From Bacteroidia bacterium (GTDB lineage: Bacteria > Bacteroidota > Bacteroidia > Palsa-965): a stretch of DNA of 32,281 nt. Positions 1,692-30,739 of this stretch are shown piece by piece. The first letter of the stretch is position 1. Each line of letters opens with the position of its first letter. The stretch covers positions 1-32,281 of the forward strand of contig DATHKF010000684.1 of the NCBI GenBank assembly GCA_035489505.1, read 5' to 3'. Below the pieces are notes generated by a model. The model had not been told where the DNA came from and did not search any database. It saw only the letters and a list, made by a program, of their open reading frames with translations. The position numbers and the translations under genes are program-made.

Positions 1692-1929
1692 GACAGTGTC
1701 TCAGTTTGAACATTTGCTATTTGACACGGCGACACGGCGCATTTTTACGGTATTTCTTATTCTAAGCCCGGGCGCTCACGGCGAGATAACGGTAACTTCA
1801 CTATAGAATGAAAGATTTCCGCTTGGCGGAAATACAATTGGTCTCGCCGTGAACGCGCGGGCTTAGAACGGGTTTTGTGCTTCTTTTAGCGCCGTGTCGC
1901 CGTGTCAAAAAGCAAAGTGAGACACTACC
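1692..1929. mobile_element. MITE-like nested palindromic element, family A copy 1
   Basis: The ends are GACAGTGTCTCAGTTTGAA... and ...GTGAGACACTACC. There is a perfect 20-bp inner inverted repeat, TTGACACGGCGACACGGCGC (1721-1740 / 1889-1908), and a third nested palindrome TTCTAAGCCCGGGCGCTCACGGCGAG. The 8-nt flanks are TAAAAAAC and AAAAAAAC. The interior is ~95% identical to 9699-9901. Confidence 0.6.
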
Positions 1930-6507: not shown

Positions 6508-6639
6508 AATGATTTGCTAAAATCTTTGTCGACTTCGATACAATTAACTGTTGTCACTTCGAGTGTCCGACGAAGGAGGAGGTATCGAGAAGCGACAACA
6601 GTTAATCACTCAGTCTGACAAAGATTTTAGCAAATCATT
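6508..6639. repeat. Palindromic element, family B copy 1
   Basis: The 110-nt core (6519-6628) is ~96% identical to 18438-18546, and the first 62 nt are identical. The copy-specific outer stem AATGATTTGCT (6508-6518) / AGCAAATCATT (6629-6639) is perfect. The right arm contains the TGA stop (6635-6637) of the DUF2723 gene. Confidence 0.85.
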
Positions 6640-9698: not shown

Positions 9699-9901
9699 GG
9701 CAGTGTCTCACTTTGCTTTTTGACACGGTCCGATAGCAATCGGGAGCGCATTTTTACGGCATTTCTTATTCTAAGCCCAGGCGCTCACGGTGAGATAACG
9801 GTAACGCGCCGTGAGCGCCCGGGCTTAGAACGGGTTTCGTGCTTCTTTTAGCGCCGTGTCACCGTGTCAAAATTATCAAATGTTCAAACTGAGACACTAC
9901 C
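9699..9901. mobile_element. MITE-like nested palindromic element, family A copy 2
   Basis: The ends are GGCAGTGTCTCAC... and ...CAAACTGAGACACTACC. The interior is the same as copy 1 at ~95% identity, but the short and long end types are swapped. The left inner arm is interrupted by the mini-hairpin CCGAT-AGCA-ATCGG (9730-9743). Confidence 0.6.
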
Positions 9902-15874: not shown

Positions 15875-15920
15875 TCACTTAAAGTTCTGTTTTGCAATAC
15901 TTATTGAATTCTGTTTTTTT

Positions 15921-16030
15921 ATTGAAACCGCTTAAGCGGTTGAACCTCCAGTTGTATTCATTGCCGGGGGCTTAAGCCCCCGGCAATAGAAAAGGGCGGG
16001 TTGCCAAAACGGTTTTTAACCGTTTTTTCG
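15921..16030. repeat. Three-hairpin module, family E free copy
   Basis: AACCGCTTAAGCGGTT (15926-15941, perfect palindrome); ATTGCCGGGGG-CTTAAG-CCCCCGGCAAT (15960-15987); AAAACGGTT-ttt-AACCGTTTT (16006-16026). The same three modules, in the same order, occur inside element A3 at 22911-23005. Confidence 0.8.
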
Positions 16031-17180: not shown

Positions 17181-17247
17181 CGTCATCGCGAGGCACGAAG
17201 CGATCCCATCTCTTAAAGAAGGGACTGCTTCGTGCCTCGCAGTGACG
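17181..17247. repeat. Palindromic element, family D copy 1
   Basis: CGTCATCGCGAGGCACGAAGC...GCTTCGTGCCTCGCAGTGACG. The reverse complement aligns with 23063-23132. It ends exactly at the TAA (17248-17250) of the next gene. Confidence 0.75.
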
Positions 17248-18429: not shown

Positions 18430-18554
18430 CAAATTCCAAAATCTTTGTCGACTTCGATACAATTAACTGTTGTCACTTCGAGTGTCCGACGAAGGAGGAC
18501 GTATCGAGAACGACAACGGTTAATCACTCAATCTGACAAAGATTTTGGAATTTG
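18430..18554. repeat. Palindromic element, family B copy 2
   Basis: The core at 18438-18546 is ~96% identical to 6519-6628. The copy-specific outer stem CAAATTCC (18430-18437) / GGAATTTG (18547-18554) is perfect. The element ends 2 nt before the hutU TGA. Confidence 0.85.
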
Positions 18555-22863: not shown

Positions 22864-22880
22864 TCCGGAGTAGGGAGTTC

Positions 22881-23044
22881 GGTAGTGTCTCAGTTTGGCC
22901 ATTGGGGATTTTTGAAAACCGCTTAAGCGGTTGAATGTTTAGGACTGTTCATTGCCGGGGGGCAATGAACCCGGTAAACCAGCTCAACGGTTTTAACCGT
23001 TTCCATGCCACAAATCTTAACTGATTTCAAACTGAGACACTACC
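22881..23044. mobile_element. MITE-like element, family A copy 3, carrying family E cargo
   Basis: Perfect 16-bp TIRs GGTAGTGTCTCAGTTT / AAACTGAGACACTACC, with a perfect 8-bp direct repeat GGGAGTTC immediately outside both ends (22873-22880, 23045-23052). Confidence 0.7.
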
Positions 23045-23062
23045 GGGAGTTCGGAGGCTAGC

Positions 23063-23132
23063 CGTCACTGCGAACGCTCTTCAGCGAAGCAGTCCCCTCT
23101 TTGAAGACGGGATTGCTTCGTTCCTCAATGAC
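23063..23132. repeat. Palindromic element, family D copy 2 (degenerate)
   Basis: CGTCACTGCGA...GAAGCAGTCCCCTCTTTGAAGACGGGATTGCTTCGTTCCTCAATGAC aligns with the reverse complement of 17181-17247. The left arm is disrupted. Confidence 0.6.
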
Positions 23133-25829: not shown

Positions 25830-25911
25830 GGTAATGTCTCAGTTTTATTCAGGCCGCGAATTACACGAATTACGCTAATCACTCCTTAGCGTAATTCGTG
25901 TAATTCGCGGC
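25830..25911. repeat. Solo family-A end followed by a perfect 26-bp-stem hairpin
   Basis: GGTAATGTCTCAGTTT (25830-25845) matches the A TIR at 15 of 16 positions. GCCGCGAATTACACGAATTACGCTAA (25853-25878) and TTAGCGTAATTCGTGTAATTCGCGGC (25886-25911) are perfectly complementary, with the loop TCACTCC. Confidence 0.8.
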
Positions 25912-25943
25912 TAACTTTATATCGCTCGCCAGACCTATGACTT

Positions 25944-29735: not shown

Positions 29736-29777
29736 AGGAGGTGTGGTTAAGAAGGCTAAAGATATAAAAAATCGTGT

Positions 29778-29970
29778 GCGGGAAGCAGGGAAGAGGGGAC
29801 AGGAAGGCGGGGGTCAGGAGGCAGGAAGACAGGGGTTCAGGAGGCAGGGAAACAGGGATTCAGGGGGGCAGGAAAACAGGGATTCAGGGGGCAGGAAGAC
29901 AGGGGTTCAGGAGGCAGGGAAACAGGGATTCAGGGGGCAGGGAAACAGGAGGTCAGGAGGCAGGAATAGA
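29778..29970 (+). repeat. Purine-rich degenerate tandem array (unit ~22-24 nt, GCAGGRAAACAGGGRTTCAGGRG), upstream flank of the four-helix cassette
   Basis: About 7 units. A 45-nt block is exactly duplicated (29821-29865 = 29891-29935). Contains the G4-type run GGGG-N11-GGG-N5-GGG-N5-GGGGGG at 29831-29867. Confidence 0.9.
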
Positions 29971-30115
29971 GTTCGTTGCGGGGAAGAAAGATGTGGCGGA
30001 TAAAGGCGCGTGGAAACGTTTACAAACGACTACAAACGTTTACATCCGACTACAAGTACTTAAATACCGACTAGTTCCAGGGAAGGCAATTACCATTGCA
30101 AAAAATCAAAAAGTT

Positions 30116-30511
30116 ATGACACAAAACAAAGGTTACCGTTCGTTGATTGCCTACCAGAAATCTTTTAATCTGGCAATGGCCATTTTTCGTTTAACTAAAA
30201 AATTTCCAGCAGAGGAGAGATATGAGTTAACCAGCCAGATCAGAAGATCATCGAGGTCGGTTTGTGCAAACCTGGTTGAGGGCTATCGTAAAAGCATGTA
30301 TCCTAAACTCTTCATGAACAAACTGGTTATTTCAGACGGTGAATGCTCGGAAACGTTGCTATGGCTGGAATTTGCTGTGGCATGTGAATACATTTCTACC
30401 GAGGAATTTACCAAGTACGAATTGCTTATCGAAGAGGTCGGCAAATTGTTGGGGGCGATGATTAAAACGCCGGAGAGATTTGGAGCGATGCGGGGACGGG
30501 TAGCTAAGTAG
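30116..30511 (+). CDS. Four-helix-bundle protein (23S rRNA intervening-sequence protein / Avd-like family)
   Basis: 131 aa. YRSLIAYQKSFNLAMAIFRLTKKFPAEERYELTSQIRRSSRSVCANLVEGY...ECSETLLWLEFA is the canonical TIGR02436/PF05635 pattern. The upstream part of ORF 29774-30511 is only a translated tandem repeat. Confidence 0.88.
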   Translation: MTQNKGYRSLIAYQKSFNLAMAIFRLTKKFPAEERYELTSQIRRSSRSVCANLVEGYRKSMYPKLFMNKLVISDGECSETLLWLEFAVACEYISTEEFTKYELLIEEVGKLLGAMIKTPERFGAMRGRVAK

Positions 30512-30680
30512 GGCGGGTGGCAGGAAAGCAGGGGTTCAGGAGGCAGGGAAATCAGGAGGCAGGAAAAGCAGGTATTCAGGTAGCAGGAAATCAGGTGGCA
30601 GGAAAGCAGGTATTCAGGTAGCAGGGAGATCAGGTGGCAGGAAAGCAGGAGGCAGGTATTCAGGAGTTCAGGATGCAGGA
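30512..30680 (+). repeat. Purine-rich degenerate tandem array, downstream flank of the four-helix cassette
   Basis: About 8 units of GCAGGAAAGCAGGTATTCAGGTA / GCAGGRARATCAGGTG type on the same strand as the upstream array. It shares GGGGTTCAGGAGGCAGGGAA with that array. Confidence 0.9.
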
Positions 30681-30739
30681 ACTCTGAGAGCCGATCTCTC
30701 GCTCCCTGCCTCCTGAACTCCTGAATACCTGCCTCCTGC
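30645..30739. repeat. Long hairpin closing the cassette (29-bp perfect inverted repeat)
   Basis: GCAGGAGGCAGGTATTCAGGAGTTCAGGA (30645-30673) is exactly complementary to 30711-30739, and 5 further bp extend the stem. The right arm overlaps by 1 nt the TAG (30739-30741) of the minus-strand gene. Confidence 0.9.

What the first reader, a model, noticed from the sequence alone, without database searches (positions are those of the whole stretch)
22873..23052. MITE-like element with perfect 16-bp terminal inverted repeats and a perfect 8-bp flanking duplication
GGTAGTGTCTCAGTTT (22881-22896) is exactly complementary to AAACTGAGACACTACC (23029-23044). The 8 nt immediately outside both ends are identical: GGGAGTTC at 22873-22880 and 23045-23052. 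TIRs plus a target-site duplication are the signature of transposase-mediated insertion. However, the 164-bp element has no coding capacity, and no transposase gene is present anywhere in this window. The same ends bound two more elements. The copy at 1692-1929 has flanks TAAAAAAC / AAAAAAAC (7 of 8 identical), and the copy at 9699-9901 has no clear duplication. A solo end lies at 25830-25845. I do not recognise this terminus as a named IS or MITE family.
Basis: partly seen in the sequence, partly recalled or inferred. Interest (0 to 1): 0.72.

Follow-up and report, generated by a model that had tools for sequence, protein, structure and literature searches.

The report
IS1-family miniature transposon (MITE) insertion
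This is a real 164-bp non-coding mobile element, cut down from an IS1-type insertion sequence, that inserted between two genes of an uncultured Bacteroidia bacterium; it is a newly described but ordinary example of a well-known kind of element.

Summary
Window 22881-23044 is a 164-bp element with 17-bp perfect terminal inverted repeats (GGTAGTGTCTCAGTTTG). It is flanked by a perfect 8-bp direct repeat, GGGAGTTC.

- **Empty site.** A related metagenome contig (L120) is 81-88% identical in both flanking genes. It has one GGGAGTTC and no element.
- **Parent family.** The same terminus bounds elements of 34 bp to 4.8 kb in many phyla. The long ones encode a ~295-aa single-ORF transposase that matches Pfam DDE_Tnp_IS1. 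Its stop codon lies inside the repeat. NCBI and JGI name its homologues "IS1 family transposase".
- **Family traits.** The ends fit the IS1 signature GGnnnTG. In two censuses, 26 of 53 and 23 of 48 paired elements have perfect 8-bp duplications.
- **Other window copies.** The copy at 9699-9901 belongs to a sub-family with at least 40 copies (84-96% identical) in JGI metagenome Ga0193752/3. The copy at 1692-1929 is its close relative.
- **Transposase.** No IS1 transposase lies in the window or in 16 kb more of its contig, so mobilisation in trans is inferred, not shown.

Verdict: an IS1-family MITE. This is a new member of a known kind, of modest interest.

The parts
22873..22880 (.). Left copy of the 8-bp target-site duplication, GGGAGTTC
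   Evidence: The empty site in L120 has this octamer once.
22881..23044 (.). MITE copy c3, 164 bp and non-coding. Its core holds three short hairpins.
   Evidence: It lies 17 nt after the stop codon of the PALP gene and upstream of a Sulfotransfer_2 gene.
22881..22897 (+). Left terminal inverted repeat, GGTAGTGTCTCAGTTTG (17 bp). It fits the IS1 signature GGnnnTG.
23028..23044 (-). Right terminal inverted repeat, the exact complement of the left one
23045..23052 (.). Right copy of the 8-bp target-site duplication, GGGAGTTC
1692..1929 (.). MITE copy c1, 238 bp. It is the c2 type with about 47 extra bp in the central loop. Its ends have 2 and 1 mismatches, and its flanks match at 7 of 8.
   Evidence: A relative in L136 is 85% identical.
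9699..9901 (.). MITE copy c2, 203 bp, lying between the TMEM260-like gene and pheT. Its flanks match at only 4 of 8, so no duplication is preserved.
   Evidence: It is 84-96% identical to at least 40 copies in Ga0193752/3 loci.
25830..25845 (+). Solo end, GGTAATGTCTCAGTTT (1 mismatch), next to an unrelated repeated hairpin with a 27-bp stem at 25850-25912. The possible partner end, AAACTGAGA at about 25985, lies inside a coding region and is probably chance.
15918..16030 (.). Three-hairpin module 74-80% identical to the c3 core but without IS1 ends. It is probably a decayed c3-type copy or an independent hairpin repeat.

Best explanation
The element at 22881-23044 is a non-autonomous deletion derivative (MITE) of an IS1-family insertion sequence of the single-ORF type. 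It keeps only the roughly 17-22 bp terminal inverted repeats that the IS1-type DDE transposase recognises. Its interior is a short hairpin-rich filler.

Inferred mechanism: a transposase supplied in trans, from a full-length relative elsewhere in the genome or on an incoming replicon, binds both ends. It joins them to a target cut with an 8-bp stagger, and repair of the gaps produces the GGGAGTTC duplication.

- **Shown:** the insertion itself (filled versus empty site), the 8-bp duplication as a family-wide trait, the multi-copy state, and the link between this terminus and IS1-type transposase genes.
- **Inferred:** trans-mobilisation, the identity and location of the active transposase, and the choice between copy-in and cut-and-paste chemistry. 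No effect on the neighbouring genes was shown.
For: 1. **Perfect ends and duplication.** The element has a 17-bp perfect inverted repeat and a perfect 8-bp duplication.
2. **Empty site.** L120 (JGI 3300048071) is 81.5% identical in the upstream PALP gene and 88% identical in the downstream gene. Removing window 22881-23052 gives ...CGGAGTAGGGAGTTCGGAGGC..., which aligns to L120 ...CGGAGCCGGGAGTTCGGAGGT....
3. **Wide distribution.** The exact 16-mer occurs in more than 118 stretches from Acidobacteriota, Alpha-, Beta- and Deltaproteobacteria, Bacteroidota, Binatia, Planctomycetota and cyanobacteria. Conservation continues as GGTAGTGTCTCAGTTTGAAAT. Paired ends bound elements of 34 bp to 4.8 kb.
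4. **8-bp duplication is a family trait.** Perfect duplications occur in 26 of 53 pairs, with 11 more at 7 of 8. The control maximum is 6 of 8, and none extends to 9 bp.
5. **IS1-type transposase in long elements.** L017, L105, L002, L104 and about 25 others encode a 276-304 aa ORF. It hits Pfam PF03400 DDE_Tnp_IS1 at 35.5 bits (cut-off 24.1) and NCBIfam transpos_IS1 at 66 bits, its best family. NCBI and JGI name the homologues 'IS1 family transposase', and at least 8000 clusters match.
6. **Stop codon inside the repeat.** The transposase stop codon lies within the terminal repeat (...ATT TCA AAC TGA GACACTACC). From my own reading of the IS1 sequence, not a tool result, the insB stop codon of E. 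coli IS1 likewise lies inside its right end.
7. **Ends resemble known IS1 ends.** The right end of E. coli IS1 is GGTAATGACTCCAACTT (verified). An ISAba3-like IS1 member has GGTGGTGTTTCAAAAAGTATGCTG with 8-bp duplications (PMC6382973).
8. **Lineage-specific amplification.** 48 paired copies of 140-298 bp were found in 0.5 Mb of Ga0193752/3 loci. Of these, 23 have perfect duplications and 12 have 7 of 8.
Against: - No IS1-type transposase was found in the window, in 16.3 kb of additional contig, or in 499 kb of MITE-bearing Ga0193752/3 loci. The only hit there is a fragment in L164, which comes from another metagenome. A resident mobilising enzyme is therefore unproven.
- The NCBIfam IS1 equivalog score (66 bits) is below its cut-off (100 bits). 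The transposases are therefore distant from classical IS1 and lack its two-ORF frameshift layout.
- Copy c2 has no duplication, and c4 is a lone end.
- The empty site comes from a relative only about 81-88% identical. Strictly, it shows presence/absence polymorphism and cannot separate insertion from precise loss.
Confidence: 0.9

Rival explanations
1. It is a MITE of another family that makes 8-bp duplications and has similar GG...TG...CA ends, such as IS6/IS26 or IS1595, rather than IS1.
For: The terminus loosely resembles IS26 and IS1595 ends (GGCACTGTTGCAAA type, from memory). The transposases also give weak hits to IS6 models: NCBIfam transpos_IS6 at 30 bits and Pfam DDE_Tnp_IS240 at 23 bits.
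Against: The IS1 models score best. Pfam PF03400 is above its cut-off, whereas PF13610 is below its own. NCBIfam scores IS1 at 66 bits and IS6 at 30 bits. Public annotation says IS1 family. The PF12762 (IS1595) model gives no hit.
Confidence: 0.05
2. It is a REP/REPIN-type palindromic element moved by a RAYT (IS200/IS605-like tyrosine transposase). The cue is the GTAG near the 5' end and the hairpin-forming body.
For: The ends contain GTAG. All copies fold into long hairpins, with z-scores of -6.7 to -11.6. Other hairpin repeat families coexist in the genome.
Against: REPINs do not make fixed-length target duplications, whereas an 8-bp duplication is family-wide here. The same ends bound IS1-type DDE transposase genes, not RAYT genes. 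Elements as short as 34 bp, made only of the two ends, still carry 8-bp duplications.
Confidence: 0.02
3. It is a host structural or regulatory palindrome, such as a terminator, an sRNA or a protein-binding site, and the flanking octamer identity is coincidental.
For: It is intergenic, sits just after a stop codon and is strongly structured.
Against: The relative has an empty site with one octamer. There is no Rfam hit and no terminator-like or promoter-like site. The terminus is shared across phyla and is attached to transposase genes.
Confidence: 0.03

Closest known systems
IS1 family, single-ORF members (for example the ISAba3-like elements bounding Tn6645 in Moraxella osloensis; PMC6382973)
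   Same: The ends fit GGnnnTG: GGTAGTG here against GGTGGTGTTTCA... in the ISAba3-like element. Both make 8-bp target duplications. Both have a single DDE transposase ORF with an N-terminal helix-turn-helix domain that matches Pfam DDE_Tnp_IS1.
   Different: The window element carries no transposase. The related transposases score below the NCBIfam IS1 equivalog cut-off. Many full-length relatives carry passenger genes and an extra small conserved ORF at the opposite end.
Classical IS1 of Enterobacteriaceae (768 bp, insA/insB' frameshift)
   Same: The terminal sequences are related: the IS1 right end is GGTAATGACTCCAACTT, against GGTAGTGTCTCAGTTT here. IS1 makes 8-9 bp duplications. From my own reading of the IS1 sequence, not a tool result, its transposase stop codon also lies inside the right end.
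   Different: IS1 makes its transposase by a programmed -1 frameshift between two ORFs, whereas this clade has one continuous ORF. Their host ranges differ.
Bacterial MITEs in general (for example MITEAba12, 113 bp, IS5-type ends, 9-bp duplication; PMC6382973)
   Same: All are short, non-coding and multi-copy. All have terminal repeats copied from a parent IS, a fixed-length duplication and insertion polymorphism between relatives.
   Different: The parent family here is IS1 and the duplication is 8 bp. Sub-families share only the roughly 17-22 bp ends and have unrelated hairpin-rich cores.

Membership tests
MITE (non-autonomous element with terminal inverted repeats) | Small size and no coding capacity | tested here: met
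   The element is 164 bp and its longest internal ORF is 35 aa.
MITE (non-autonomous element with terminal inverted repeats) | Terminal inverted repeats | tested here: met
   The inverted repeat is 17 bp and perfect.
MITE (non-autonomous element with terminal inverted repeats) | Target-site duplication of fixed length across copies | tested here: met
   The duplication is 8 bp here. It is perfect in 26 of 53 and 23 of 48 paired copies elsewhere, controls never exceed 6 of 8, and none extends to 9 bp.
MITE (non-autonomous element with terminal inverted repeats) | Multiple dispersed copies | tested here: met
   The window holds 3 paired copies plus 1 solo end. At least 40 c2-type copies occur in Ga0193752/3 loci.
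MITE (non-autonomous element with terminal inverted repeats) | Presence/absence polymorphism with a single target copy at the empty site | tested here: met
   L120 has a single GGGAGTTCGGAGG between the same two genes.
MITE (non-autonomous element with terminal inverted repeats) | Ends shared with an autonomous IS in the same genome | tested here: inconclusive
   Autonomous elements with identical ends were found in many other genomes, including Bacteroidota (L002, L104). None was found in the 48.6 kb of the source contig or the 499 kb of related loci examined. The full MAG could not be searched.
IS1 family | IS1-type DDE transposase | tested here: met
   Tested in full-length elements with the same ends. 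Pfam PF03400 scores 35.5 and 25.1 bits against a cut-off of 24.1. NCBIfam transpos_IS1 is the best hit at 66 and 59 bits but is below its equivalog cut-off of 100. Public annotation reads 'IS1 family transposase'. No transposase is present in the window element itself.
IS1 family | Ends of the form GGnnnTG (ISfinder family signature, recalled from memory) | tested here: met
   The terminus is GGTAGTG. Compare IS1 GGTAATG and ISAba3-like GGTGGTG.
IS1 family | 8-9 bp target duplication | tested here: met
   The duplication is 8 bp.
IS1 family | Two ORFs (insA, insB') joined by a programmed frameshift, as in the classical IS1 group | tested here: not met
   The relatives have one continuous ORF of about 295 aa. 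This places them with the single-ORF IS1 members, not classical IS1.
REP/REPIN-RAYT | No target duplication, and association with a RAYT gene | tested here: not met
   A consistent 8-bp duplication is present, and the ends are associated with DDE transposases.
IS6/IS26 family | IS6-type transposase | tested here: not met
   The IS6 models score below the IS1 models and below their own cut-offs.

The most novel reading that the evidence does not exclude
This IS1 sub-clade keeps an almost invariant 17-22 bp end across at least seven phyla, while its transposases diverge to about 56-70% identity. MITEs with these ends could therefore be mobilised by any incoming clade member. That would allow large MITE families, such as the roughly 200-bp family in this Bacteroidia lineage, to persist and re-amplify in genomes with no resident transposase. 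The cores may be recruited from, or decay into, the host's independent hairpin repeat families.
Probability: 0.2. Interest if true: 0.45.

Novelty: new member of a known kind. Interest (0 to 1): 0.28.

Why it matters
- **Annotation.** The result assigns an unrecognised repeat in an uncultured Bacteroidia genome to the IS1 family and supplies a simple end motif, GGTAGTGTCTCAGTTTG. That motif flags both MITEs and full-length elements across many phyla.
- **Assembly.** These repeats fragment metagenome assemblies. One JGI contig from the same organism ends inside copy c1.
- **Population markers.** The copies are insertion-polymorphic, so they can serve as strain markers.
- **Limits.** No new mechanism or biology is implied.

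Tried and rejected
- **RNA genes.** Rfam at gathering thresholds and a tRNA scan of the window found nothing.
- **Regulatory signals.** The promoter and terminator scan around c3 found nothing.
- **Literature.** No paper holds the terminus string, and none describes IS1-derived MITEs of this kind. 'ISMhu11' does not occur in the library, so sub-group placement rests on memory.
- **First look-up failed.** The 318-aa ORF of the PLP enzyme was not on record because the real start gives 287 aa.
- **Global alignment misled.** The MAFFT alignment of filled and empty sites forced the element against unrelated sequence. It was replaced by an alignment made after removing the element.
- **Resident transposase not found.** tblastn found nothing in the window, in the contig flanks, or in the 499 kb of Ga0193752/3 loci, apart from a fragment in L164 from another metagenome. 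Walking further along the contig was not possible, because look-ups accept only window proteins.
- **Small conserved ORF of long elements.** It has no Pfam, NCBIfam or PDB-sequence hit.
- **Second end for c4.** AAACTGAGA at about 25985 was considered as a degenerate second end. It was rejected as probably chance because it lies inside a called gene.

Full report
**Observation**

GGTAGTGTCTCAGTTT lies at 22881-22896 and its exact reverse complement at 23029-23044. One more base pairs on each side, so the perfect inverted repeat is 17 bp. GGGAGTTC abuts both ends, at 22873-22880 and 23045-23052, and the identity does not continue outward.

Allowing 3 mismatches, the 16-mer occurs 7 times in the window against 0.14 expected, and none of 100 shuffles reached 7. 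These hits define four features:
- c1 at 1692-1929;
- c2 at 9699-9901;
- c3 at 22881-23044, the finding itself;
- a lone end at 25830-25845.

c1 and c2 share a core at about 94-95% identity, and c1 has about 47 extra bases in the central loop. c3 and the lone end have unrelated interiors. All of them fold into long hairpins.

c3 has no ORF longer than 35 aa. It lies 17 nt after the stop codon of a PLP-dependent enzyme gene (PF00291) and upstream of a Sulfotransfer_2 gene (PF03567). Rfam and tRNA scans of the window are empty.

**Empty site**

The PLP enzyme has an exact match in a 'MAG TPA: Bacteroidia bacterium' record. The window is part of ENA ERZ27268082 contig k141_382621 (150,580 bp), and contig position equals window position plus 46917. 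A second assembly, ERZ27268085 (L119), is 99.9% identical and also carries c3, so c3 is not an assembly artefact.

A relative from JGI sample 3300048071 (L120, 1008 bp) is 81.5% identical across the PLP-enzyme gene and 88% identical across the downstream gene. Between the two genes it reads ...ggagccGGGAGTTCGGAGGTgtag..., with one copy of the octamer and no element. After removing window 22881-23052, the two loci align straight through the junction.

It shows that the element and the second octamer arrived, or left, as a unit.

**What the ends belong to**

I estimate that a database of this size would give a few hundred chance hits. These hits are not chance, for two reasons:
- The conserved sequence continues as GGTAGTGTCTCAGTTTGAAAT.
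- Many stretches hold a second end in inverted orientation.

The hosts span Acidobacteriota, Alpha-, Beta- and Deltaproteobacteria, Bacteroidota, Binatia, Planctomycetota, Nitrospirota and cyanobacteria.

The paired ends bound elements from 34 bp (two ends back to back) to 4.8 kb. Of 53 pairs, 26 have perfect 8-bp duplications and 11 more have 7 of 8. A shifted-flank control never exceeds 6 of 8, and no perfect duplication extends to 9 bp.

The long elements encode a 276-304 aa protein with an N-terminal helix-turn-helix domain:
- It hits Pfam DDE_Tnp_IS1 above the gathering score (35.5 and 25.1 bits against 24.1).
- Its best NCBIfam hit is transpos_IS1 (66 and 59 bits), which is below the equivalog cut-off of 100.
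- About 30 of the 118 stretches have this gene next to the terminus.
- Homologues on plasmids of cultured bacteria, and in the large protein collection, are named 'IS1 family transposase'. At least 8000 clusters match.

The stop codon of the gene lies inside the terminal repeat (...ATT TCA AAC TGA GACACTACC). That helps explain why the repeat is conserved.

The terminus fits the IS1 family signature GGnnnTG, which I recall from ISfinder. It also resembles two ends checked here:
- the right end of E. coli IS1, GGTAATGACTCCAACTT;
- an ISAba3-like IS1 member, GGTGGTGTTTCAAAAAGTATGCTG, which also makes 8-bp duplications (PMC6382973).

**Copies in this lineage**

A scan of JGI metagenomes for the c1/c2-specific end returned 53 stretches, nearly all from Ga0193752/Ga0193753. 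One Ga0193753 contig carries a protein identical to a window protein and breaks inside c1. The window organism is therefore in that sample, and its assembly fragments at these repeats.

The 499 kb retrieved hold 120 ends and 48 paired elements of 140-298 bp. Of these, 23 have perfect 8-bp duplications and 12 more have 7 of 8. c2 is 84-96% identical to at least 40 of them. c3-type copies also occur there, often with decayed ends. The c3 core module also occurs without ends, including at window 15918-16030.

**What is not shown**

No IS1-type transposase was found in any of these places:
- the window;
- the 16.3 kb of contig flanking the window, which also holds no further ends;
- the 499 kb of Ga0193752/3 loci, apart from a fragment in L164 from another metagenome.

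Mobilisation in trans is therefore an inference from the shared ends. The source of the enzyme is unknown. c2 has no preserved duplication (4 of 8), and the feature at 25830 is a single end beside an unrelated repeated hairpin. No effect on neighbouring genes was tested, and simple promoter and terminator scans of c3 are empty.

**Rivals**

- **IS6/IS26 or IS1595 parentage.** This is disfavoured because the IS1 models score best and the IS6 models fall below their cut-offs.
- **REP/REPIN-RAYT.** This is contradicted by the fixed 8-bp duplication and the DDE transposase link.
- **Purely structural host palindrome.** This is contradicted by the empty site.

**Comparison with known elements and verdict**

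This is a MITE of the IS1 family, derived from the single-ORF branch rather than from classical two-ORF IS1. The literature library holds no paper with this terminus and none describing IS1-derived MITEs of this kind, so the element appears undescribed. Its anatomy and inferred mechanism are standard. I rate it a new member of a known kind, with modest interest.

The most novel reading still open is that the near-invariant end lets MITEs in transposase-free genomes be mobilised by any incoming member of the clade.

Noticed in passing
window 6519-6628 and 18438-18546: A second, unrelated repeat of about 110 bp, 97-99% identical, with sharp borders and its own inverted ends (AAAATCTTTGTC ... GACAAAGATTTT). 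It has no direct duplication. Instead, the flanks of each copy are inverted complements of each other and differ between copies (TGATTTGCT|element|AGCAAATCA and CAAATTCC|element|GGAATTTG). This looks like insertion into the centre of a palindrome.
   Followed up: partly
window 15918-16030; also Ga0193752 loci such as L148 1792-1891 and L161 7457-7526: A three-hairpin module 74-85% identical to the core of c3 occurs both inside IS1-type ends and without any ends. At least 12 copies lie in the related metagenome loci. It may be a decayed MITE or an independent hairpin repeat.
   Followed up: partly
window 17182-17246 and 23083-23132: A short hairpin repeat lies just downstream of c3. It has another copy in the window and at least 8 copies in Ga0193752 loci.
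   Followed up: no
window 25850-25912; L171 5758-5796 and 6001-6039: A hairpin with a perfect 27-bp stem is repeated at least 8 times in related loci, mostly without IS1 ends. In L171 a 192-bp MITE sits between the two arms of such a hairpin.
   Followed up: partly
window 29792-29977 and 30491-30692: Arrays of G/A-rich 23-nt tandem repeats overlap the two ends of the ORF at 29774-30511. The corresponding gene calls in two assemblies carry the 23S_rRNA_IVP/bAvd domain (PF05635, PF22296). The two assemblies differ in repeat length here.
   Followed up: no
L017 3881-4126, L005 5628-5819, L105 3801-4064, L104 7107-7340, L002 170-421: Full-length and mid-size elements with these ends carry a conserved small ORF of 60-87 aa (...ATGE...GGKARA..LT.E.RSEIAKKAA.ARW). 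It lies at the end opposite the transposase and in the same orientation. It has no Pfam, NCBIfam or PDB-sequence hit.
   Followed up: partly
L002 357-2037, L005 5124-5585, L104 6622-7110: Many elements carry passenger genes between the small ORF and the transposase. Examples are a 367-aa ORF that I read by eye as an XRE/ImmA-IrrE-like fusion (not scanned against any profile library) plus a 206-aa ORF in a Cytophagales MAG. Another is a DUF4440/SnoaL protein in an 817-bp transposase-less element of Mesorhizobium calcicola.
   Followed up: no
L044 7627-7660, L103 6473-6513, L061 7050-7096: These minimal elements of 34-47 bp consist only of two terminal repeats back to back. They still have 8-bp duplications: perfect in L044 and L103, and 7 of 8 in L061.
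   Followed up: no
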